Source: a virus. From it: 64,000 nucleotides of DNA. Below are positions 13,988-59,332 of the stretch, piece after piece (the stretch's first letter is position 1; each line of letters opens with the position of its first letter). The stretch is from positions 32,185 through 96,184 of IMG/VR virus record IMGVR_UViG_3300042396_000723; one strand, 5' to 3'. A program made the translations under genes and the position numbers. The notes beneath the pieces were generated by a model that worked only from the letters and a program-made list of their open reading frames with translations, was not told where the DNA came from and made no database searches.

Positions 13988-14512
13988 TTAATAGCGGTTT
14001 TCCTCCTCAGTCCAACTTTGTTCAACTAAGCAATCAACAGCTAACTGAAACGAACTATGGCGGGACGTACTATACTGAAAACCTTTCCCATGCACCAGCA
14101 TCTCACCGACCGCATAAAACCAGGATTTGTACTGGACTACGAAACCCAACTTACAACCCGTCTCATAAATAACCGTCCCCTGTTGTTTGGCTAAGGAAAC
14201 AATCATTTCTTGAGTTGGTTGATTCGCGTCGATTAATTCCCGTTTTTGGGAACAGATTAGCTCCCAATAGAATGAGAACTGATCCGCACCAATTAGAATT
14301 GCGCCACCATCAGCTAACACAAATTTCAAGATGTCGTGATTGGTAAAGATACCTGTTATCTGTTCGGGCGTGGGATTGATTTGTCCGAATGTGTCCCAAG
14401 CAATGACTTGGGCAGCGATGGTCTTGTCTAGTGCTAACGCCATGATTTCCCCTGAAATCAGAGGGGCGGGCGCTGTCTGAACTTGACTTGTTTGGACGGT
14501 TGTTGCTATCAT
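13988..14512 (-). CDS. hypothetical protein
   Basis: 174 aa ORF downstream of the regulator gene; a palindrome and -10-like element lie upstream at 14590-14620. Confidence 0.35.
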   Translation of the reverse strand: MIATTVQTSQVQTAPAPLISGEIMALALDKTIAAQVIAWDTFGQINPTPEQITGIFTNHDILKFVLADGGAILIGADQFSFYWELICSQKRELIDANQPTQEMIVSLAKQQGTVIYETGCKLGFVVQYKSWFYAVGEMLVHGKGFQYSTSRHSSFQLAVDCLVEQSWTEEENRY

Positions 14513-14731
14513 GGTTTAGTTGGGTTTTGACCCGTAAGGCGGTTGGCACTGATGTTGTAGTCGGGTGCTGACCGCTTTTGGCTTTGTATCTACAATCTTA
14601 TAGTAATCTGATTACTATGTCAAGGGGTTTCGGAAAAATTCTTGTTACTACACAAAAAGAAGTTTAGGTATTGGCGGCAAGGCTTGTACAGAAAGGCATT
14701 TAGCTTATGCGGTTGCAATCGACAATCACTC

Positions 14732-15004
14732 TCATCGCTTCTGACTAAAGGACTTGATTGTCACGGTAGGGAACAGGTCTCGGATATCAGCACCGAGGGT
14801 CTTTAAAACAAAATCCAATCTTTCACGACTAACAGATGCAACTTTTCCCTGTTCCCATTTGAGGATTGTGTCAAAGGAAACCGTTGGCTCCGTAAGGGTT
14901 GCAAGTTTTTTTTGCGATATGTTTTTGGCATTTCTTACATCTTGCAATCTAGTCCCAACGTCCTTATCCCAAGCAATTTGGACAATACAGTTATATGGAA
15001 TCAT
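14732..15004 (-). CDS. XRE-family helix-turn-helix transcriptional regulator (CI/Cro-like)
   Basis: HTH segment ISQKKLATLTEPTVSFDTILKWEQGKVASVS; the internal ATG (complement of 15002-15004) is preceded by AGGAG; first gene of the leftward operon, facing the divergent replication operon. The track ORF extends to 15217. Confidence 0.6.
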   Translation of the reverse strand: MIPYNCIVQIAWDKDVGTRLQDVRNAKNISQKKLATLTEPTVSFDTILKWEQGKVASVSRERLDFVLKTLGADIRDLFPTVTIKSFSQKR

Positions 15005-15446
15005 AATCTCCTCTTCTTGATCTTTCGGTATAGTATTGACATTACTACCTTTTTGTTCTAACATAGCAATATTGTAGGAATCTGGCAAGACCAAATCACC
15101 AGATTCCTGCACCCCCTGAAACAACAAGCCTTGGATCGGCTTTGTAAATCGTAAGGGGAAAAACCCGAAAAGGAAAATGCCTATGGGATGAAACTGAACG
15201 GGCAGATTGTAGAACACCTAAATACCAGAGGGAAGATTCAAGCATTCCCTTTGGTTTCCTAAATAATGAAATGAAAAAAATAGCGATAGCGATTGCGATT
15301 GCGATTTTTGCAGTCATAAATTGTTTATTAATTTTCTGTGATGATTCGCAGAAAATCGGGGAAAATTCCCCGTCGGAAGAGCAACCCAAACGGGGAGATG
15401 GTCGAAGAAGCTGATCATCATTTTCCCTAAAAATTTTGAGGAAAAT
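15005..15446. promoter_or_regulatory. divergent control region between regulator gene and replication operon
   Basis: About 440 bp without a convincing ORF; contains TTGACA at 15044-15049, hexamer repeats GCGATAGCGATTGCGATTGCGATT at 15283-15306 and palindrome CGGGGAAAATTCCCCG at 15357-15372. Confidence 0.4.
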
Positions 15447-15725
15447 ATGAAGATTTCAATTTCAGAAGAATTGGATGACATTGGAATGTCCGCCGAAGCA
15501 TTCCGAGTCTATTTTGCGATCGTTTGCCATATTGCAAATCACGAGACGTTTCCAACGGTTGATCAAATCACGTCAAAATGTTTTTCCAGACGACGCGCGT
15601 CTGGAAAAACGCAGACAAGGCTTGCGTTGCGCGAGCTAATTAAGCTCGGTTTAATTAGCGGTGATATCGAAACGGAAAACTATACCTTAGTTCATCCCAG
15701 TAAGTGGGAAGTGGGGGCTGTATGA
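15447..15725 (+). CDS. winged-helix DNA-binding protein, first gene of replication operon
   Basis: 92 aa; FRVYFAIVCHIANHETFPTVDQITSKC...RLALRELIKLGLI resembles a winged helix; its stop overlaps the next ATG (ATGA at 15722-15725). Confidence 0.45.
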   Translation: MKISISEELDDIGMSAEAFRVYFAIVCHIANHETFPTVDQITSKCFSRRRASGKTQTRLALRELIKLGLISGDIETENYTLVHPSKWEVGAV

Positions 15726-16897
15726 AACCATCTATTCTAGCCGCCTTTGCAGAAGCCGTCCCCTATATCCCCGGACTCAGACAGCAAACAGGGAGCGTAG
15801 TAGCCACGATTCTTATGATGCAACTTGAGTATCGTTTCGCAAAGTATCCAGACGGGTTTTATAAGTTTTTAGAACCCCCTCAAAACGGACATCAGGACTA
15901 CAGGCTTGGGGATAGTTGGGTTGAGGAACTCGCTTTTTCTAAAGAAGAATTTAGGACTGGGTTTGACAAGATTGGAGTCCGTTACAACTCCAAAACCCAG
16001 TATGACGAAGCAAAATCTAGCGGATCGGAATTTGGTTGTAATTACTACTGTTCTTACGTTGACCGGAGGTCGGGGTTAACTTTCTACTTTCGGAATCACA
16101 GCAAGGTAGATGAGCTAATTTCCGATATCGAACCCAGGCAAAAATCAGTGGGTTTTCGCCCACGGAAAACTAGACCCCAAATGGTAGATCCCAATCTACA
16201 GGAAATCGGGAATCCCAATTTACTGAATATGGTAAATCCCAATTTACCATCATCGGGAATCCCAATTTACCAGAGTGGTGAATCCCAATTTCCTATTCCT
16301 TATATAGATATTTCAGAAAAGACTTCAGAAAAGACTCCAGAAAATACCCCCCTTACCCCCCAAGGGGAATCGGAGGAGGGGGGGATTCAGAACGAAGCCG
16401 TTTTGATTTCAAACGAAGACCAGGGGAAAGAGCTTACCGAGGACTCTGCTACACAGCAAAGTCAAAAAGAGAATCACCGACCTGAACAAAATCTTAATCC
16501 GGTGATCAGACATTCCGCCGCCGTCGAGTCCGATCCTCGATTTCTACCAACGGACGCAACAGCAGACAATATGAAAACTTGGAACGCAATTGTGGCGACC
16601 GGAGCCATGAGAGGTGAGCGATCGCCCGACCCTGAGTTTTTGGAATATTACAGGGGGCTATTAAGCAAATGCACTCATTACAGGGGCAAAGACTGTAATT
16701 CAAACCATGCCAAATCTTCCCTTGCTCAGAAATGGAAATCCGAGCCACTAAAAATCCTTGCCGATGCCGAGTCGTGGTTGAAATCAAAAGCCAAGTTTAG
16801 CGGTGGCAAATCAACCCAGACCCGCAATATCAGCGAACTTTCTAGGGATGAACGCCTCGCCATCCTGAGAGCCAAACGCGAACAAAAAGGAGCCTAA
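15722..16897 (+). CDS. putative replication initiation protein with origin repeats embedded in a low-complexity linker
   Basis: Sits directly upstream of the DnaB helicase; the central linker (PNLQEIGNPNLLNMVNPNL...) is encoded by iteron-like direct repeats, the arrangement known for lambda O and its ori. Confidence 0.45.
   Translation: MKPSILAAFAEAVPYIPGLRQQTGSVVATILMMQLEYRFAKYPDGFYKFLEPPQNGHQDYRLGDSWVEELAFSKEEFRTGFDKIGVRYNSKTQYDEAKSSGSEFGCNYYCSYVDRRSGLTFYFRNHSKVDELISDIEPRQKSVGFRPRKTRPQMVDPNLQEIGNPNLLNMVNPNLPSSGIPIYQSGESQFPIPYIDISEKTSEKTPENTPLTPQGESEEGGIQNEAVLISNEDQGKELTEDSATQQSQKENHRPEQNLNPVIRHSAAVESDPRFLPTDATADNMKTWNAIVATGAMRGERSPDPEFLEYYRGLLSKCTHYRGKDCNSNHAKSSLAQKWKSEPLKILADAESWLKSKAKFSGGKSTQTRNISELSRDERLAILRAKREQKGA
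16188..16347. repeat. iteron array plus AT-rich tract and 12-bp tandem repeats (candidate origin of replication)
   Basis: Five direct repeats of (G)AATCCCAATTTAC starting at 16188, 16211, 16235, 16258 and 16281 (23-24 bp spacing), then TTATATAGATA and three copies of TTCAGAAAAGAC-like 12-mers at 16312-16347. Confidence 0.55.
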
Positions 16898-22938: not shown

Positions 22939-23535
22939 TTATCTAATCACAGGGACAGGAATAATCCCCATCAGAATGCCAGATATTTCCTGAAACATTC
23001 GCGTAGTTGTTTGCGTTGCGTCAATTATAATCCAGTTATTTTGCCTAGCCAATTCCAGATATCCGAAGCGAACCCGATCTAAAAAAAGCAAGTCTCGTTC
23101 AACCTTGTCCAGAGGTTTGTCGAGATCGCGGCGCACCGCCACCTCAACAGGACAATCGAACAAAATCACCATATCGGGATCAATTCCCCCCGTCGCCTCG
23201 TGATTTAGCTTCCTTAAATTATCTAAATTAAGCCCGTGCCCATATCCCTGATAGGCAAGTGTTGAATCCGTGTATCGATCACACAATACCAAATCAGAAT
23301 CTTCTAACAAATATCTAATCGTGGGATTGTGTTTAATCCTATCCTTCAGGATTAATTTAAGCTGCTGCTCCGGCGTTAAACACCCATTCTTTAATTCAAA
23401 ACGAACGTCATAATCGCAGGGTTCTCTTGTGATGTAGAACTTTAACTTTAACGCCGTGAAATGGTCGCAAAGTTTTCTAATTTGGGTTGTTTTCCCACTG
23501 CGGTCAATACCTTCAAAAGCAATCAATTTACTCAT
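22939..23535 (-). CDS. tmk: thymidylate kinase (dTMP kinase)
   Basis: P-loop IAFEGIDRSGKTTQ and DRYTDSTLAYQG motifs; first ATG is the complement of 23533-23535. The track ORF extends to 23550 on a TTG. Confidence 0.85.
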   Translation of the reverse strand: MSKLIAFEGIDRSGKTTQIRKLCDHFTALKLKFYITREPCDYDVRFELKNGCLTPEQQLKLILKDRIKHNPTIRYLLEDSDLVLCDRYTDSTLAYQGYGHGLNLDNLRKLNHEATGGIDPDMVILFDCPVEVAVRRDLDKPLDKVERDLLFLDRVRFGYLELARQNNWIIIDATQTTTRMFQEISGILMGIIPVPVIR

Positions 23536-23696
23536 TTCATCCTCATCCAATTTTTAATCAAATCATCTTTAATCATACCTTGCCTTATTAATTCAATTAT
23601 ATATTCTCTAGCTTCCTCCAGTGTCAATATATCCACATTACGTTTAATTATCGCAAGTTTAAATTCTTGCTCCATTGTTAGCTGTGTTGGTTCCAT
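23532..23696 (-). CDS. nblA: NblA-like phycobilisome degradation protein (not in ORF track)
   Basis: My own translation gives 54 aa MEPTQLTMEQEFKLAIIKRNVDILTLEEAREYIIELIRQGMIKDDLIKNWMRMK; its length, predicted two-helix layout, LTxEQEF start and C-terminal KNW fit the NblA pattern (L-[ST]-x-E-Q-[QE]-F ... K-H-Q-W); its stop overlaps the tmk ATG. Confidence 0.5.
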   Translation of the reverse strand: MEPTQLTMEQEFKLAIIKRNVDILTLEEAREYIIELIRQGMIKDDLIKNWMRMK

Positions 23697-26575: not shown

Positions 26576-27265
26576 TTATCTGATAATCGTTAACGTCGTA
26601 GTCTCTGGCAACTTCACCCACGGATAAACGATCCGCCAAACATCGTGACTATAAATATTTTTCGTCATGTACCGGGCGTCGGGAACTTGTTTAATCTCTA
26701 TCCCCATCTTAATACTCATCGCTTTGAGAGGTCGCCAACTGAAGTTAGACTCATGAACTTTATTGAACTTGGCAACCCTGATGATTGACGAATAATCAAA
26801 AAGTTCATCCAAAGCCTCGGACAGTTGATTGTTTTCTTCCTCAAGCAGTGCTTTCTCGGCCTCTAACTTTTCTACCTCTAACGCCAATCGTCCAGCCTCT
26901 AGCAAAGCCTGAGCATAGGTTTGTGGTAACGCAAGCGGGGTCTGAACGTGGTTATTCTTAGCAAGGGAGAAAGCCTCAACTAACCGTTCTTTGCAATCCA
27001 AAACCTGATCACTGTTTCGGGAAAACGTCATCAAAAGTGTTGCTTGTGCTTCATTCAAGAAACAGTAAGAGACTTCGTAAGCCCCACCCTGCGGGCGTCT
27101 CACCACGTCCGTTTTAAACGCGACTGGTGTTTTTCGTTCTAATCGGTCTAAATACTTTGTGATTGTTTGCAGTAAGTTCTTATGTTGAATCCCCAGTTCA
27201 TCAGCAATCAATCGGGAATCGACAACTAAGGTGTCATTCTGTGTGGTAATGTCAAGAATAGCCAT
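26576..27265 (-). CDS. phage regulatory protein, Rha-family N-domain with antirepressor-type C-domain
   Basis: N-terminus LVVDSRLIADELGIQHKNLLQTITKY resembles the Rha family; the C-terminal ~110 aa are about 60% identical to the C-terminus of ORF 49458-50186. Confidence 0.55.
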   Translation of the reverse strand: MAILDITTQNDTLVVDSRLIADELGIQHKNLLQTITKYLDRLERKTPVAFKTDVVRRPQGGAYEVSYCFLNEAQATLLMTFSRNSDQVLDCKERLVEAFSLAKNNHVQTPLALPQTYAQALLEAGRLALEVEKLEAEKALLEEENNQLSEALDELFDYSSIIRVAKFNKVHESNFSWRPLKAMSIKMGIEIKQVPDARYMTKNIYSHDVWRIVYPWVKLPETTTLTIIR

Positions 27266-41813: not shown

Positions 41814-43802
41814 ATGACCGCCCAATCATCCGAGACAACAAAAAAAGAAACCACCACAGAGATTGTGAATCGTTATAGAGAAGACTCTCGCGTCATGATG
41901 CAAGCGTTAGCGGAGAGTGCCGACGCAAGTTCGATGCGAAATCCTCTCCCTGTAACGGGAAGAATCCAGCCTTTCTCTCAACAGCAAGTAGAAAACTGTT
42001 TAGCAGACGCGATCTTAAAACGAATTGCATGGAGCCTTCCATCTTCGTCAACCCAAAAGATGTGGCAGTTATCCTTGGGGGATGACTTCTCTAGTAAGAC
42101 GGGTTCTAAATTAGTCCGAGATTATTATGCCTATCACGAAAGATTGAAAACCATATCACAATTTAGAAAAGCATTGCAGTTCTCTCGCTCTCATGGTGGG
42201 ACAGTTATTATTCTCAAGATTAACGATGGAAGACATTATTCCGAACCTGTTGATGAAGGCAAGATTAAATCAATCTCTGGGTTAATCGTTCGTCACCGAT
42301 GGCAAGTTGCTCCTTCGGTGAGAACGGCTGCTAGTATATTTGACCTTGATGACATTGAACATTATGAAATCCTAACAATTGACCAACAAATAAAACAAAA
42401 ATTACTATTTAACGGAACAAATTCCAAGCAGGATGATCGCCTGATTCATCGGTCAAGAATCCTCCGGTTTAATGGGGCATTAATGCCTGATGATTGGATG
42501 ATTTCCTATAACAATGGATGGGGATTGAGTGTCTTTGACGAGGTTTGGAAATATTATAAAAACTATACGAATGGACTCAATGCAGTAGGCGAATTAATTA
42601 AAACCCAATCAGTTCTACAGCATTCTTTTGAAGGACTGCGGGAACTGATGATGGCATCTGATGAAGAAAGTATCGCAGCTATTAAGCAAACCATGAAATC
42701 AATCCGACTAATGTTTGATCTATATGGCATGGTTCTCCACGACTCCCGTGAACAATTCAACTGGAATGCCCGCCCCGTCGTCGGGATGGATTCACTCGTG
42801 CAAGTACAGAAGGATGGGGTAACAGGAGCCTCTGGGATGCCTCACACGATAGTTTGGGGAGAAAGCCCTGGGGGTTTGGGGCGTGATGGCAAGGAGACCC
42901 AAATCAACTATGCTAACTCGGTGGCAGAGTACCAAGGAGAGAGCTTAGATCCTAGCGCAGCTATTCTTGATCGTTATATCTTCTTGGCTAAAGACGGCCC
43001 CACAAAAGGCAAAATCCCCGACAACTACCAGAGGCAGTACCCTTCTATCTTGAGGATGACCATCGAGGATCTCCGCTCTGGACGCTCATCTGATATTCAG
43101 GCATTGGCTTCAGGTATTCAAGCCGGATTCATCACGACAGATGAAGCTCGGACAGTGCCTTCTAACTCCGGTTGGTGGCCAGAGCTTAATCTTGATCAAA
43201 AAGCATGGGAAGAAGCCAGGAAAAAAGCAGAAGAACAAGCAAACTCCCTTGGTGGTTTTGATATGGGAGCATTAGGAGGAGAGGAAGTTGCCCCACCCAC
43301 TGAAGAACCCGTCGAAGAAGAATCTATAACTCAAATGGACAGTGCTGTTTACACCCCAATAAAGCGGGTTCTTAATTGGCACGGGCTATCAATTGGGGTC
43401 ACTCACGATAAAGGGGATCTTCGCTATAACAAAACGATGAAGGTAGGGTATGGGCATATTAGACGCAGCTATGGACACGCGGAGGACGCAAAAGCAATCG
43501 ACGTTTATATCAAAAATCCAAACTCACCTAGTCTCTGGAAGGTTCGGCAACTCAACACAACAACAGGGGAGATTGACGAAACAAAGTATTTCTTGGGTTT
43601 TGATTCCCCCAAAGAAGTGCGCGATTGCTATTACTATCATGCCGGATTAGATCGTTTTGGAGGAGTGGAGAAGTGCGATCCTACGGAATTAAACCAATAT
43701 CGCCAAGATGCAGAAGAATTGGAGGGAGTTAATGAAGTTTATCAAAATAAGATATTAACAGATGTAGCAAATAGAATCAATCAACAAACTCAATTAGATT
43801 AA
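41814..43802 (+). CDS. portal protein candidate
   Basis: 662 aa, first gene of the rightward head operon, divergent from the terminase operon; size and position fit a portal. No motif confirmed. Confidence 0.4.
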   Translation: MTAQSSETTKKETTTEIVNRYREDSRVMMQALAESADASSMRNPLPVTGRIQPFSQQQVENCLADAILKRIAWSLPSSSTQKMWQLSLGDDFSSKTGSKLVRDYYAYHERLKTISQFRKALQFSRSHGGTVIILKINDGRHYSEPVDEGKIKSISGLIVRHRWQVAPSVRTAASIFDLDDIEHYEILTIDQQIKQKLLFNGTNSKQDDRLIHRSRILRFNGALMPDDWMISYNNGWGLSVFDEVWKYYKNYTNGLNAVGELIKTQSVLQHSFEGLRELMMASDEESIAAIKQTMKSIRLMFDLYGMVLHDSREQFNWNARPVVGMDSLVQVQKDGVTGASGMPHTIVWGESPGGLGRDGKETQINYANSVAEYQGESLDPSAAILDRYIFLAKDGPTKGKIPDNYQRQYPSILRMTIEDLRSGRSSDIQALASGIQAGFITTDEARTVPSNSGWWPELNLDQKAWEEARKKAEEQANSLGGFDMGALGGEEVAPPTEEPVEEESITQMDSAVYTPIKRVLNWHGLSIGVTHDKGDLRYNKTMKVGYGHIRRSYGHAEDAKAIDVYIKNPNSPSLWKVRQLNTTTGEIDETKYFLGFDSPKEVRDCYYYHAGLDRFGGVEKCDPTELNQYRQDAEELEGVNEVYQNKILTDVANRINQQTQLD

Positions 43803-57466: not shown

Positions 57467-59332
57467 ATGATCATAGAGACTAAATCAGCCCCAACAAAAG
57501 CTCAAATGCAAGCAGCGATCGCCCAGACTCTTGCTCTTCCTTTTGCCTATAACTCCCCAGTGGATGTGATGGACTTTAAGGTAGATGGCACGGGTAAAAT
57601 ATCAGGGCGATTCAAGGATTCTGCCCGTCCAAGGGTGTTTGATTTTGAGTTAGATGGAAATACCGTCAACTTCAAACCTTACACGACAGGACGTATGGAT
57701 TCGGACGATGCAGTGGAACAATGGGAGGAGTTCTCGTCAGGGTATTCCTATCGTTTTGATGCTAAGGCAAAAGCCAAGGCGAAAAGCAAGACAGGAGACT
57801 CCAAGAAACCCCAATGCGTTAAACCCACAGCATATAATTGCGGAAAAGCCTGTATAAATATTAATAATAATTGTAAATCCAACCCCGACGATGCTAACTC
57901 AAAGGATCGTTTAGAAAAACTGAAAGCTGCTGGTATTGATTACGCTAAAGAAACTAAGAAATCCACTCCTAAATCTACCGCAAAAACCAAGAAAGAGGTA
58001 GAAAAACCACCGGAAATAGATAAAACCCCTAAAATAGATAAAACCCCTGAAAAGATAGAGGGAAAGGCTACCGAGTCCAAATCCCTTAATTTAGTAGGAA
58101 AAGGGGATCACGAGTCCGTCCCCAAAGATGCGAATGAATACTATGAAGCAATGAAAACATCGGGCAATCCTATCTCTTATGACGATGCCATAAAGATTAC
58201 CGGAGCCGTTAGAGAGTGGACGGAGGATGCTTCTTATATTAGGGAATCTCAAAAAGCAGGGAAATACAGCATTATTGCCGACCGGATTAATGATTACGTT
58301 AAAAGTTCAACGCCATTCAAGGGCGAAATTTATCGAGGCATCTCCTTCGGATCAACAGATGAGGCTTTGAGTTGGGCTAAGGGAGATAGTGATGGGATAT
58401 TAGATAATCAGAATGCCCATGCTTCTTGGACTTCTAACTGGGATAAAGCCAGAAAGTTTGCTGGTAACAATTCGGTAAACGACTTTACATCGCAACCTGT
58501 CATTATCAAAACAAATAATAAGTCGGGTGCCTCCATCAAAAACCTAAGCAACATTGGCACAGAAGATGAGGTAGTGGTTGTCAAAGACACTCGCCATCGG
58601 GTTAAGAATGTTGTATACGAAGATGGTGTTTTGATCGTTGAGACAGAAGAAGTTTCTCCAGATGAGGGAAAGAAAGCGCCTGAACCATCACCAGAAATAA
58701 CTAAACCCCAAAAAGAATCCGAGGAAAAGGCAGTTAAACAACCCGAAAATAAACCCAAAAACCTTAATTTAGTGGGCAAAGGCGATCATGAATCCATGCC
58801 ATCAAGCCACAAAGAGTATTATAAAGCACTGAAAAAAGCAGGGGTCAATATTTCTGAGAAGGAGGCAGCAGCCACCACTACAGCCATCTATAAATGGACG
58901 AGGAATGCTAACGACATCCGAGCCGATCAAAAGGCAGGAGAGGAGAACGAAGATGCAAATCGAATCTCTAATTATGTCAGGAACTCAACCCCATACAAAG
59001 GCGAAGTTTACCGAGGGATTCACTTTGAAACCAAAGAGGAGGCTTTAAACTGGACTAAAGGCGACAAGGATGGAGTGCTAGATAATCAAGGTGCTCACGC
59101 CTCTTGGTCATCTAGCCTTAAAACAGCAGAAGAATTTTCAGACGATTTCTTTATTGAGGAAAAAAGATATCCTGTTGTCATTAAATCAATCAACAAATCA
59201 GGTGCTTCTATTAAGAATTTAAGCAACATCAAAGAAGAAGACGAGGTTATGGTTTTAAAGGATACTCGCCATCGGGTTAAAAGTGTCAGGGAAGAAAACG
59301 GACGGATTATTGTTGAAGCTGAGGAAGTATAG
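57467..59332 (+). CDS. modular family member D: N-domain, 4-Cys linker, two tandem ADP-ribosyltransferase-like domains
   Basis: 621 aa; each duplicated C-terminal unit has INDYV / ISNYV, YRG (KGEIYRGISF / KGEVYRGIHF), an STS-like HASWTS / HASWSS, and ExE followed by hydrophobics (TEDEVVVV / EEDEVMVL), matching the R-S-E ART motif order. Confidence 0.55.
   Translation: MIIETKSAPTKAQMQAAIAQTLALPFAYNSPVDVMDFKVDGTGKISGRFKDSARPRVFDFELDGNTVNFKPYTTGRMDSDDAVEQWEEFSSGYSYRFDAKAKAKAKSKTGDSKKPQCVKPTAYNCGKACININNNCKSNPDDANSKDRLEKLKAAGIDYAKETKKSTPKSTAKTKKEVEKPPEIDKTPKIDKTPEKIEGKATESKSLNLVGKGDHESVPKDANEYYEAMKTSGNPISYDDAIKITGAVREWTEDASYIRESQKAGKYSIIADRINDYVKSSTPFKGEIYRGISFGSTDEALSWAKGDSDGILDNQNAHASWTSNWDKARKFAGNNSVNDFTSQPVIIKTNNKSGASIKNLSNIGTEDEVVVVKDTRHRVKNVVYEDGVLIVETEEVSPDEGKKAPEPSPEITKPQKESEEKAVKQPENKPKNLNLVGKGDHESMPSSHKEYYKALKKAGVNISEKEAAATTTAIYKWTRNANDIRADQKAGEENEDANRISNYVRNSTPYKGEVYRGIHFETKEEALNWTKGDKDGVLDNQGAHASWSSSLKTAEEFSDDFFIEEKRYPVVIKSINKSGASIKNLSNIKEEDEVMVLKDTRHRVKSVREENGRIIVEAEEV

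What the first reader, a model, noticed from the sequence alone, without database searches (positions are those of the whole stretch)
15005..15446. Long divergent control region with hexamer repeats and a 16-bp palindrome
Between the XRE-type regulator and the replication operon lie about 440 bp with no convincing ORF, containing (GCGATW)x4 at 15283-15306 and CGGGGAAAATTCCCCG at 15357-15372, plus promoter-like hexamers. This is the expected location of a lysis/lysogeny-type genetic switch.
Basis: partly seen in the sequence, partly recalled or inferred. Interest (0 to 1): 0.45.

Follow-up and report, generated by a model that had tools for sequence, protein, structure and literature searches.

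The report
Cyanophage switch region hiding small gene
Only the left fifth of this "control region" is a phage repressor/promoter switch. The repeats and palindrome that drew attention are codons of an unannotated 47-amino-acid membrane-protein gene, and most relatives of that protein carry the cyanobacterial RGSGR cell-signalling motif.

Summary
The window is a relative of Planktothrix phage PaV-LD. The 442-bp gap (15005-15446) is not one non-coding switch.

1. 15005-15090 holds overlapping divergent promoters and one operator, ATAGTA-N7-TACTA (15030-15047). Its twin lies at 14600-14617, on the other side of the XRE gene. Four repressor alleles in relatives each carry their own palindrome at exactly these two places.
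2. 15068-15262 is a structured leader. Its last hairpin (15224-15255) is kept by compensatory changes in 11 of 12 lineages.
3. 15271-15414 is an unannotated 47-codon gene.

Both flagged features lie inside that gene. The hexamers encode (Ala-Ile)4 of a hydrophobic helix and are absent from relatives. The "palindrome" is imperfect, not beyond chance, and encodes Gly-Glu-Asn-Ser-Pro. Coding is supported by a 6/6/19 split of variable sites across codon positions, by in-frame indels only, and by a rescued start codon.

The protein belongs to a narrow family that always lies between an XRE gene and replication genes. Its members share an N-terminal hydrophobic helix and a C-terminal GDGRR. Most also have [N/E/H]RGSGR, the PatS/PatX HetR-inhibitor motif, but this copy has only RGDGR.

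The features it relied on are not switch elements.

The parts
14600..14617 (.). Left operator O_L, ATAGTAATCTGATTACTA (TAGTA-N7-TACTA palindrome). It lies in the spacer of the leftward promoter P_L, abutting its -35.
   Evidence: One of only two sites in 64 kb (expected 0.59). In relatives the palindrome at this spot changes together with the repressor allele.
14595..14623 (-). Promoter-like P_L for the leftward operon: TTGACA-17-TAAGAT.
   Evidence: Consensus scan, 10 of 12. TGTCAAGG is conserved in all immunity types. No transcription start site has been mapped.
14732..15004 (-). XRE/CI-like repressor gene (90 aa).
   Evidence: HTH_3 and HTH_26; PHROG transcriptional repressor. The M[IV]PY start is conserved in 11 alleles, and a GAGGAG Shine-Dalgarno lies 5 nt upstream.
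15030..15047 (.). Right operator O_R, ATAGTATTGACATTACTA. Its N7 spacer contains the -35 of P_R.
   Evidence: In every immunity type the right copy has the form half-site / TTGACA[TC] / half-site.
15036..15064 (+). Promoter-like P_R for the rightward early transcript: TTGACA-17-TAACAT.
   Evidence: Consensus scan, 10 of 12. TTGACA and TANCAT are conserved in all types.
15060..15088 (-). Promoter-like site for the XRE gene: TTGCCA-17-TATGTT with an upstream TG. Its -10 overlaps the -10 of P_R.
   Evidence: TTGCCAA and CAT[AG][AG]CAATA are conserved across all lineages.
15073..15111 (+). Leader hairpin 1: 13-bp stem including one G.U pair, 13-nt loop.
   Evidence: -20 kcal/mol, z = -6.5. Invariant in the close relatives. 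L040 carries a C-G to T-A double change. L029/L031/L038 form a different hairpin at the same place, with a T-A to C-G change (read by eye).
15113..15158 (+). Leader hairpin 2: outer stem CCCCU/AGGGG enclosing AAGCC...GGCUU.
   Evidence: Minimum-energy fold. An 8-nt insertion in relatives falls in the inner loop. CCCC...GGGG with a variable interior recurs in distant leaders.
15224..15261 (+). Leader hairpin 3 (ACCAGAGGGAA / UUCCCUUUGGU) plus a UUUCCU tail. Attenuator- or terminator-like.
   Evidence: -16.2 kcal/mol. Present in 11 of 12 lineages with different stems. 92% of cells paired, 3 of 6 pairs with changes on both sides, covariation score reached by 1 of 500 shuffles; G.U pairs occur on the + strand only.
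15271..15414 (+). Unannotated gene for a 47-aa protein, MKKIAIAIAIAIFAVINCLLIFCDDSQKIGENSPSEEQPKRGDGRRS: an N-terminal hydrophobic helix and a charged tail.
   Evidence: ORF. Seven alleles: variable sites 6/6/19 by codon position, all indels in-frame, start codon rescued in L008. Kyte-Doolittle maximum 2.9. Family found.
15283..15306 (+). The flagged (GCGATW)x4, which is codons 5-12, (Ala-Ile)4, of the hydrophobic helix.
   Evidence: It is replaced by ASLIAI, AISLAI, GMWVAI or IIAI in relatives.
15357..15372 (+). The flagged imperfect palindrome: codons (AT)C GGG GAA AAT TCC CCG for Ile-Gly-Glu-Asn-Ser-Pro.
   Evidence: The 'GEN' aligns with ...RGSGRGENK... of the L010-type proteins.
15391..15408 (+). 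Codons for the C-terminal RGDGRR, the motif that defines the family (G[DES]GRR).
   Evidence: The only RG[STDE]GR in the six frames of the window. Invariant G-x-G-R columns in the family alignment.
15420..15446 (+). Inverted repeat AUUUUCCCUAAAA / UUUUGAGGAAAAU, which can sequester the GAGGA Shine-Dalgarno (15438-15442) of the next gene.
   Evidence: I13; fold -8.6 kcal/mol, z = -1.6. Conserved ahead of three unrelated downstream genes. Its function is inferred.
15447..15725 (+). First annotated gene of the replication module (92 aa).
   Evidence: Weak PHROG match to the N-terminus of a replication initiator. Homologue of PaV-LD ORF004R.

Best explanation
The gap between the XRE gene and the replication module is the early control region of a PaV-LD-like cyanophage. 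It has three parts.

1. 15005-15090. Two overlapping, divergent sigma-70-type promoters sit here: P_R rightward, and the XRE gene's own promoter leftward. A single 18-bp operator (15030-15047) covers the -35 of P_R. An identical-type operator (14600-14617) sits in the leftward promoter P_L, beyond the other end of the repressor gene. The XRE dimer is inferred to bind both operators, shutting P_R and P_L and damping its own promoter.

2. 15068-15262. When P_R fires it makes a leader of about 190 nt with three hairpins. The last hairpin and its U-rich tail are conserved by compensatory change. It most likely attenuates, or otherwise gates, read-through into the genes downstream.

3. 15271-15414. 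The first gene of the rightward operon is an unannotated 47-codon gene for a small membrane-anchored or exported protein. The replication genes follow.

The hexamer repeat is simply (Ala-Ile)4 codons in the protein's hydrophobic helix, and the palindrome is Gly-Glu-Asn-Ser-Pro codons. Neither is a binding site.

Shown: the sequence anatomy, the co-variation of operator and repressor, the coding signature, the hairpin covariation and the synteny. Inferred: promoter use, repressor binding, attenuation and the protein's function.
For: Identity and mosaicism. The region is 83% identical to PaV-LD over the parts of the query that align (35% of it). Fifteen IMG/VR contigs share a block, about 15050-15465, at 95% identity or more. 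The XRE gene on its left and the gene on its right are swapped for other alleles or for unrelated genes.

Operators. ATAGTA-N7-TACTA occurs only twice in 64 kb, against 0.59 expected. Each of four repressor types carries exactly two copies of its own palindrome at the same two positions:
- TAGTA-N7-TACTA
- CTTATA-N7-TATAAG
- ACGTA-N7-TACGT
- GGGATA-N7-TATCCC
Alleles that share the recognition-helix sequence SEPTIIKLE share the operator. The promoter hexamers are conserved in all types.

Leader. The + strand folds at -60.7 kcal/mol, z = -4.0, against z = -2.4 for the minus strand. Hairpin 1 has z = -6.5. Hairpin 3 is present in 11 of 12 lineages, with 92% of cells paired, 3 of 6 pairs with double changes, and 1 of 500 shuffles reaching its covariation score. 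Leader indels are 8, 1, 2, 3 and -2 nt, so the leader is non-coding.

Small gene. Seven alleles give a 6/6/19 split of variable sites by codon position, and every indel is a multiple of 3. In L008 a 2-nt deletion that removes the ATG brings an upstream ATG into frame. Homologues sit directly upstream of the replication module in every lineage examined, including an integrated prophage of Planktothrix tepida. In some lineages the stop codon overlaps the next start, ATGA.
Against: - No transcription start, terminator read-out, or protein evidence exists.
- The small ORF has no Shine-Dalgarno sequence.
- It was not found as a predicted protein with a single-sequence search. It surfaced only inside an over-long 139-aa gene call, P0045.
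- The U-tract after hairpin 3 is weak (UUUCCU), and the terminator scan did not list it.
- Hairpin 3 is missing in one lineage, L038.
- The very high DNA identity of the block among close relatives could reflect recent recombination rather than constraint.
- No integrase was found in the window ORFs scanned, so the 'lysogeny' role of the repressor is unproven.
Confidence: 0.75

Rival explanations
1. First reader's view. The whole 442 bp is non-coding. The hexamer array and the palindrome are protein-binding sites (iterons or operators) of a lysis/lysogeny switch.
For: The repeat is statistically real. The palindrome is invariant in the seven close alleles, including at third codon positions. 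On the minus strand it resembles a terminator.
Against: Both features lie in an ORF with a clear coding signature. The hexamer array is absent from PaV-LD, L008, L009, L022 and L028, where other hydrophobic codons stand in its place. The palindrome is imperfect and within chance. Distant family members have no palindrome there. The real operators are elsewhere.
Confidence: 0.04
2. The small protein is a phage-encoded mimic of the PatS/PatX/HetN peptides. It would be exported or membrane-anchored, then processed to an RGxGR-type peptide that binds host HetR in the infected cell or in neighbouring cells of the filament.
For: Most family members carry [N/E/H]RGSGR straight after the hydrophobic helix. 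ERGSGR is exactly PatS-6, and HRGSGR is close to PatX-6, HRGTGR.

The architecture, a hydrophobic N-terminus with the motif near the C-terminus, parallels PatX.

Planktothrix genomes have hetR, patX and patP.

A GGG-N5-CCC box lies 22-29 nt upstream of the gene in six lineages. In L050 it reads GGGGGTCAAACCCCTC, which resembles the HetR site GAGGGGTCTAACCCCTC.
Against: This window's copy lacks RGSGR and has only RGDGR, and PaV-LD has RGDDR. In the HetR-PatS6 structure the Ser hydrogen-bonds Glu253, so an Asp there should be unfavourable. The window also lacks the GGG-N5-CCC box. No member matches the NCBIfam PatX model. The evidence is at motif level only.
Confidence: 0.25
3. The small protein is a generic phage membrane peptide, for example for superinfection exclusion, a holin- or type-I-toxin-like membrane effector, or a membrane anchor for replication. 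Alternatively it is mainly a translational coupler for the downstream gene.
For: It has a strong hydrophobic helix. Its position next to the repressor is typical for exclusion genes. The stop and next start overlap (ATGA) in the L010 and L040 types. A hairpin that can sequester the Shine-Dalgarno follows right after its stop.
Against: This does not explain the conserved RGSGR and GDGRR motifs. No antisense promoter was found. There are no PHROG, Pfam or NCBIfam matches.
Confidence: 0.3
4. Hairpin 3 and its conserved tail (GGYUUYCUUAAAAA) are not an attenuator. They are a nut-like (boxB-boxA) antitermination site, or the terminator of a discrete leader sRNA of about 190 nt.
For: A variable hairpin followed by a conserved linear motif is the arrangement seen in nut sites. 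The core CCUU[A/G]AAAA resembles the cyanobacterial rrn boxA, GAACCUUGAAAA. An invariant single-stranded stretch, GGGCAGAUUGUAGAACACC, lies between the hairpins.
Against: The resemblance covers only about 9 nt and is weaker in this window (UCCUAAAUAA). No equivalent site was seen in the leftward leader. There is no Rfam match. The same DNA can also be read as a conserved peptide...P-x-G-F-L-K-K.
Confidence: 0.15

Closest known systems
Lambdoid / TP901-1-type phage immunity region (CI-like XRE repressor with operators at divergent early promoters)
   Same: A small HTH_3 repressor is transcribed away from the early replication operon. Palindromic operators overlap the early promoters on both sides of the repressor gene. 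Repressor and operators are swapped together as a module between otherwise near-identical phages, the pattern seen in heteroimmune phages.
   Different: There is one operator per promoter rather than tripartite O_R/O_L. The repressor is only 86-95 aa and has no recognisable C-terminal oligomerisation or autocleavage domain. No clear Cro and no integrase were found in the window. A long structured leader and a small membrane-protein gene lie between P_R and the replication genes.
PatS / PatX / HetN RG(S/T)GR peptides of filamentous cyanobacteria (HetR inhibitors)
   Same: Family members are 55-80 aa. They have an N-terminal hydrophobic, signal-like segment and an exact RGSGR, preceded by E, H or N as in PatS-6 and PatX-6. 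A second R/P-G-[DES]-G-R-R lies at the C-terminus. The hosts possess HetR, PatX and PatP.
   Different: There is no detectable homology to PatX (the NCBIfam model NF047413 is not hit). The genes are encoded by phages or prophages next to a repressor, not next to hetR. The copy in this window has lost RGSGR and keeps only RGDGR.
Arbitrium AimP / Phr-type phage and Bacillus signalling pro-peptides
   Same: A pre-pro-peptide of about 45 aa with an N-terminal signal-like helix and its conserved motif at the extreme C-terminus, encoded at the lysis-lysogeny control region. There is a weak sub-threshold hit to the Phr N-terminal signal model (E = 0.029).
   Different: No AimR/Rap-type TPR receptor gene is adjacent. 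The host is a cyanobacterium, not a Firmicute. No processing or uptake evidence exists.
Lambda tR1/nutR-type control of read-through from P_R
   Same: A conserved stem-loop with a U-rich tail stands in the leader between the early promoter and the replication genes.
   Different: No N- or Q-like protein was identified. The U-tract is weak, and the boxA resemblance covers only about 9 nt.

Membership tests
CI/Cro-type phage immunity module | HTH (XRE/HTH_3) repressor gene divergent from the early/replication operon | tested here: met
   HTH_3 at 2.6e-6; PHROG repressor families; gene order.
CI/Cro-type phage immunity module | Repeated palindromic operators overlapping the early promoters and specific to the repressor allele | tested here: met
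   Two sites only in the window, 0.59 expected. Four allele/operator types, each with two copies per locus.
CI/Cro-type phage immunity module | Repressor binds the operators, represses the early promoters and confers immunity | not testable with these tools
   Needs EMSA or footprinting, reporter fusions and superinfection assays.
CI/Cro-type phage immunity module | Lysogeny functions (integrase or partition) in the same genome | tested here: inconclusive
   None among the roughly 30 window ORFs scanned; not all ORFs were scanned. A relative in P. tepida is chromosomal and lies next to an Arm-DNA-bind_2 protein.
   It lies inside a coding ORF and is absent from five of seven alleles.
PatS/PatX/HetN RG(S/T)GR peptides | RG[ST]GR pentapeptide | tested here: not met
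   The window copy has RGDGR only. By contrast, 17 of the 23 aligned relatives have an exact RGSGR after the helix (19 if the C-terminal copies in P0012 and P0019 are counted).
PatS/PatX/HetN RG(S/T)GR peptides | N-terminal Sec-type signal or hydrophobic segment (PatX) | tested here: met
   A 20-residue hydrophobic stretch after MKK; Kyte-Doolittle maximum 2.9. Weak Phr signal-model hit. Cleavage and export were not tested.
PatS/PatX/HetN RG(S/T)GR peptides | Match to the curated PatX model (NCBIfam NF047413) | tested here: not met
   No hit for 10 family members at E up to 10. The model's existence is documented.
PatS/PatX/HetN RG(S/T)GR peptides | Host encodes the target HetR (and the PatP peptidase) | tested here: met
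   Table S3 of PMC12756182 lists hetR = 1, patX = 1-2 and patP = 1 for P. agardhii, P. rubescens and P. tepida.
PatS/PatX/HetN RG(S/T)GR peptides | Peptide binds HetR and blocks its DNA binding | not testable with these tools
   Needs ITC or EMSA with Planktothrix HetR.
Arbitrium AimP / Phr pro-peptides | Adjacent TPR receptor gene (AimR/Rap) | tested here: not met
   The neighbours are a 90-aa XRE protein and replication proteins, with no TPR domain.
Bacterial lipoprotein | Lipobox [LVI][ASTVI][GAS]C at the end of the signal peptide | tested here: not met
   VINC and LIFC have Asn or Phe at position -1. Many relatives have no Cys at all.
Intrinsic terminator/attenuator (hairpin 3) | Stable stem-loop maintained by compensatory change | tested here: met
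Intrinsic terminator/attenuator (hairpin 3) | Run of at least 5 U immediately after the stem | tested here: inconclusive
   The window has UUUCCU and relatives have CUUCCUU or UUUCUU. The site was not listed by the scan. An A-tract upstream gives better T-runs on the opposite strand in some relatives.
Any Rfam RNA family | Score at or above the family's gathering threshold | tested here: not met
   No hits at gathering thresholds. Only chance-level hits at E up to 5.
Type I toxin-antitoxin | Overlapping antisense RNA with its own promoter | tested here: not met
   There is a terminator-like site on the minus strand at 15372..15357, but no minus-strand promoter-like site downstream of it.

The most novel reading that the evidence does not exclude
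PaV-LD-like cyanophages and Planktothrix prophages place a small exported or membrane-anchored pro-peptide gene as the first gene under their immunity repressor. In most lineages that peptide carries the exact HetR-inhibitor motif of filamentous cyanobacteria (ERGSGR, HRGSGR or NRGSGR) and is preceded by a HetR-box-like GGG-N5-CCC palindrome.

On this reading the phage both senses and antagonises the host's multicellularity regulator HetR, and may signal along the filament. The 47-aa copy in this window would be a trimmed derivative that keeps only the C-terminal RGDGRR.
Probability: 0.25. Interest if true: 0.8.

Novelty: new variant of a known kind. Interest (0 to 1): 0.5.

Why it matters
PaV-LD is the reference phage of the bloom-forming, toxin-producing genus Planktothrix, and its early control region has not been described in the papers searched. 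This work gives a concrete map that can be tested: two operators, three promoters, a structured leader, and a missed gene that is also unannotated in the PaV-LD record.

The repressor and its operators come in at least four interchangeable specificities. This points to selection for superinfection immunity in phages usually treated as lytic.

The missed gene defines a narrow family, only 17 cluster representatives among 1.84 billion proteins. Most of its members carry RGSGR, the peptide signal that controls HetR in filamentous cyanobacteria. No paper linking RGSGR peptides to phages came up in the literature search. If the link is real, it would be a case of a virus copying a host developmental morphogen, and a handful of peptide-binding assays could test it.

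Tried and rejected
- Structured RNA of a known family: Rfam gives nothing at gathering thresholds for the whole window and nothing meaningful at E up to 5 for 14400-15800. No tRNA or tmRNA.
- Plasmid relatives: none.
- Species-representative genomes: one useless fragment only.
- Single-sequence search with the 47-aa protein: nothing. The family was reached only through an alignment that included distant copies read from metagenome loci.
- Long minus-strand ORFs (97 aa at 15096-15389; the 161-aa GTG extension of the XRE gene): rejected, because leader indels of 8, 1 and 2 nt break them in relatives.
- A 24-aa micro-ORF at 15188-15262 (MKLNGQIVEHL...). It looked promising: +3 indels in two relatives, and a compensating new ATG in L022. 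It is frame-shifted or lacks a start in L013/L037 and L028, and is truncated in L043. Not supported.
- An N-terminal extension or upstream ORF in the frame of the small gene, encoding ...IPFGFLNNE. The motif P-x-G-F-L-K-K recurs upstream of the gene in many lineages and is fused in frame in P0025, P0027 and L028. The window has no ATG, GTG or TTG in that frame, and the same DNA is the 3' arm of hairpin 3. Left unresolved.
- Lipoprotein: no lipobox.
- Replication origin or iterons: the repeat is not conserved.
- Helical phasing of the two operators: spacings of 330-430 bp correspond to 31.4-41.0 helical turns, which is not consistently integral. No claim is made.
- The 10-mer AGATTGTAGA occurs in the same orientation at P_L and in the P_R leader (I18). 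It is extended to 12 nt in L040 but absent in other types. Unexplained, possibly chance.

Full report
WHAT IS THERE

The window is a relative of Planktothrix phage PaV-LD. Window 13900-17500 matches PaV-LD at 83% identity over the parts that align (35% of the query). The window also carries a portal protein, a major capsid protein, a DnaB helicase and a C5-methylase.

The finding's coordinates are correct. A 90-aa HTH_3/XRE gene lies on the minus strand at 14732-15004, and a 92-aa gene starts at 15447.

The hexamer array is real and unique: GCGATA GCGATT GCGATT GCGATT at 15283-15306.

The '16-bp palindrome' at 15357-15372 is imperfect. It is two 7-nt arms around a central AA. Such a pattern appears by chance in 22 of 100 shuffles. 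It folds no better than shuffled sequence, z about -1.8 on either strand.

THE FLAGGED FEATURES ARE CODONS

A 47-codon ORF at 15271-15414 contains both features. It encodes MKKIAIAIAIAIFAVINCLLIFCDDSQKIGENSPSEEQPKRGDGRRS.

PaV-LD has an unannotated 44-codon counterpart between its ORF003L and ORF004R.

I collected relatives from IMG/VR and from metagenomes. These gave seven distinct alleles of this ORF.
- Variable nucleotide positions fall 6/6/19 on codon positions 1, 2 and 3.
- Seven variable codon columns are purely synonymous.
- Every indel inside the ORF is a multiple of three.
- In L008 a 2-nt deletion removes the usual ATG and at the same stroke brings an upstream ATG into frame.

Indels in the 200 nt upstream are different: 8, 1, 2, 3 and -2 nt.

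The hexamer array encodes (Ala-Ile)4 in the hydrophobic helix. Relatives have ASLIAI, AISLAI, GMWVAI or IIAI in its place, so the repeat as such is not conserved. The palindrome encodes Ile-Gly-Glu-Asn-Ser-Pro. Its GGGG...CCCC symmetry comes from the Gly and Ser-Pro codons.

THE REAL SWITCH ELEMENTS

A different palindrome, ATAGTA-N7-TACTA, occurs exactly twice in the 64 kb, against 0.59 expected.
- One copy is at 15030-15047. Its 7-nt spacer contains the TTGACA -35 of a rightward promoter-like site, TTGACA-17-TAACAT.
- The other copy is at 14600-14617, inside a leftward promoter-like site, TTGACA-17-TAAGAT. This lies on the far side of the repressor gene.

Relatives anchored on the conserved flanks show at least four repressor alleles. 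Each has its own palindrome at precisely these two places, and only there:
- TAGTA-N7-TACTA
- CTTATA-N7-TATAAG
- ACGTA-N7-TACGT
- GGGATA-N7-TATCCC

Alleles that share the helix-3 sequence SEPTIIKLE share the operator. This co-variation is strong comparative evidence that these are the repressor's operators.

A leftward TTGCCA-17-TATGTT site with an upstream TG lies at 15088..15060 and is conserved in all lineages. Its -10 overlaps the -10 of P_R. Binding, repression and start sites are all inferred.

THE LEADER

From about 15068 to 15262 the + strand folds into three hairpins at -60.7 kcal/mol, z = -4.0. The minus strand gives z = -2.4.

Hairpin 1 (15073-15111) has z = -6.5. Distant types keep a hairpin at this position, with double substitutions that preserve pairing (read by eye).

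Hairpin 3 (15224-15255) is found in 11 of 12 lineages with quite different stems, for example CCAGGGG/CCCCUGG and CCUGGGG/CCCCAGG.
- 92% of cells are paired.
- 3 of 6 pairs carry changes on both sides.
- Only 1 of 500 shuffles reaches the covariation score.
- G.U pairs occur on the + strand only.

Hairpin 3 is followed by a conserved U-rich motif, GGYUUYCUUAAAAA. I read it as an attenuator-like element in the P_R leader.

Other readings cannot be excluded: a nut-like boxB-boxA site, the end of a leader sRNA, or part of a small upstream reading frame encoding P-x-G-F-L-K-K. No Rfam family matches.

THE SMALL PROTEIN FAMILY

The same position holds a small gene in all more distant loci examined. 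That position is just downstream of an XRE-type regulator and just upstream of the replication genes (DnaB, Prim-Pol/VapE or D5-type helicase). In some loci the small gene's stop codon overlaps the next start.

A profile search found 42 proteins. All are 'hypothetical' and none has a Pfam domain. An exhaustive search of 1.84 billion cluster representatives found only 17.

The consensus has four parts:
- an N-terminal hydrophobic helix;
- [V/I][N/H/E]RGSGR straight after the helix;
- a linker rich in Thr, Glu and Pro;
- a C-terminal [K/E][R/P]G[D/E/S]GRR.

One member lies in the Planktothrix tepida chromosome in a prophage-like region. It has the same XRE / 340-nt gap / small gene / replication layout, and an Arm-DNA-binding protein lies nearby.

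WHY THE MOTIF IS NOTABLE

RGSGR (PatS-5), ERGSGR (PatS-6) and HRGTGR (PatX-6) are the peptides that bind and inactivate HetR in filamentous cyanobacteria. PatX has a Sec signal peptide, is exported, and is cut by the peptidase PatP. Planktothrix genomes carry hetR, patX and patP.

In six phage lineages a GGG-N5-CCC palindrome lies 22-29 nt upstream of the small gene's ATG. In L050 it reads GGGGGTCAAACCCCTC, and L043 has GGGTCTAACCC. This matches the stated HetR requirement, GGGnnnnnCCC, and resembles the hetP site GAGGGGTCTAACCCCTC.

That suggests a phage-borne HetR-responsive HetR antagonist. There are four cautions.
- The copy in this window, like PaV-LD's, has lost the RGSGR motif and the box. 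It keeps only RGDGRR, and PaV-LD has RGDDRR.
- In the HetR-PatS6 structure the Ser contacts Glu253, so an Asp at that position is not an obvious substitute.
- No member hits the curated PatX model.
- All of this evidence is at motif level.

I therefore give this as the most novel reading, at a probability of about 0.25, and not as the best explanation.

VERDICT

The region is a lambda-like immunity and early-control region joined to a missed small gene. The hexamers and the palindrome are by-products of coding sequence.

What is new is the two-operator architecture with at least four specificities in PaV-LD-like cyanophages, the conserved leader hairpin, and the unannotated protein family bearing GDGRR and, in most members, RGSGR.

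Noticed in passing
window 14519-14592 (+), with a promoter-like site at 14483-14512 (+): A strong hairpin, GCGGUUGGCAC...GUGCUGACCGC, is followed by UUUUGGCUUUG on the + strand. That strand is antisense to the 5' end of the leftward operon. It folds at -30.5 kcal/mol (z = -4.9) on the + strand against -18.1 on the minus strand.

In relatives the 3' arm varies (CUGAC, CCAGC, CCAAC, UCAGC, CCGGC) yet always pairs through G.U on the + strand only. The 5' arm was fixed by my own search pattern, so its constancy says nothing.

A TTGACT-18-TATCAT site sits about 65 nt upstream. This is a candidate antisense sRNA of about 70 nt covering the start of the 174-aa gene, comparable to P22 sar or lambda OOP.
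   Followed up: partly
related loci L042, L043, L044, L047, L050, L051 (22-29 nt upstream of the small gene's ATG); L029/L031/L038 at -75/-89: A GGG-N5-CCC inverted repeat, often extended (L050 GGGGGTCAAACCCCTC; L051 GGGGGTTAAACCCCTC; L043 GGGTCTAACCC), resembles the HetR binding site GAGGGGTCTAACCCCTC. It is absent from the window and from PaV-LD.
   Followed up: partly
window 15232-15270, and the equivalent DNA in L028, L029, L038, L040, L043, L044, L042: In the frame of the small gene the DNA upstream reads ...REDSSIPFGFLNNE. A motif [L/I][S/P]xGFLK[K/N] recurs upstream of the small gene in distant lineages. It is sometimes a separate ORF, sometimes fused in frame (P0025, P0027, L028).

The differences between lineages fall at third codon positions (GGT TTC CTA AAT against GGC TTT CTT AAA). 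The window has no start codon in that frame, and the same bases form the 3' arm and tail of hairpin 3. Whether this is coding or RNA is unresolved.
   Followed up: partly
window about 15050-15465 against its flanks: Mosaic structure. This block is at least 95% identical in 15 viral contigs. The repressor module on its left has at least three alleles. The gene on its right comes in three unrelated types that share only their first 15 or so nt (ATGAAGATTTCAATT). It looks like a recombination joint between exchangeable modules.
   Followed up: partly
window 15420-15446: The inverted repeat AUUUUCCCUAAAA / UUUUGAGGAAAAU can pair with the Shine-Dalgarno of the 92-aa gene. It lies 6 nt after the small gene's stop codon, so translational coupling is possible. 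The fold is weak, z = -1.6.
   Followed up: partly
window 14589-14598 and 15204-15213: The 10-mer AGATTGTAGA occurs in the same orientation relative to transcription at the -10/+1 of P_L and in the single-stranded part of the P_R leader. L040 has a 12-nt version in both places. Other immunity types lack it.
   Followed up: no
window 15580-15610: A perfect 13-nt inverted repeat, GTTTTTCCAGACG / CGTCTGGAAAAAC with a 5-nt spacer, lies inside the 92-aa gene. The 5' arm differs in PaV-LD, so the repeat is not conserved.
   Followed up: no
L036 (metagenome contig JACCDJ010300543.1): One contig carries two complete copies of the left hairpin / regulator / small-gene unit 3.1 kb apart. They have different regulator types: an XRE with the CTTATA operator, and a + strand 65-aa regulator. 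This may be a tandem arrangement or an assembly chimera.
   Followed up: no
L010, L036 (second copy), L039: In these relatives the minus-strand XRE gene is replaced by a + strand 65-74-aa protein (MVTKKRERPDEWVHGEKK...LGITKSEVLERAIRSGG). That protein is encoded directly upstream of the RGSGR-protein gene, next to a different palindrome, ATAAATTT...AAATTTAT.
   Followed up: no
window 26576-27265 (-), 22939-23550 (-), 41814-43802 (+), 57467-59332 (+): Other genes noted while checking the context: a Rha-family phage regulator, a thymidylate kinase, a portal protein fused to an inorganic-pyrophosphatase-like domain, and a protein with a weak ADP-ribosyltransferase domain.
   Followed up: no
Table S3 of PMC12756182: Some Planktothrix genomes (P. 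agardhii 'GCF3', P. rubescens NIVA-CYA 18) are listed with two patX homologues. The second might be a prophage copy of the family described here. This could not be checked because the stored table is cut.
   Followed up: no
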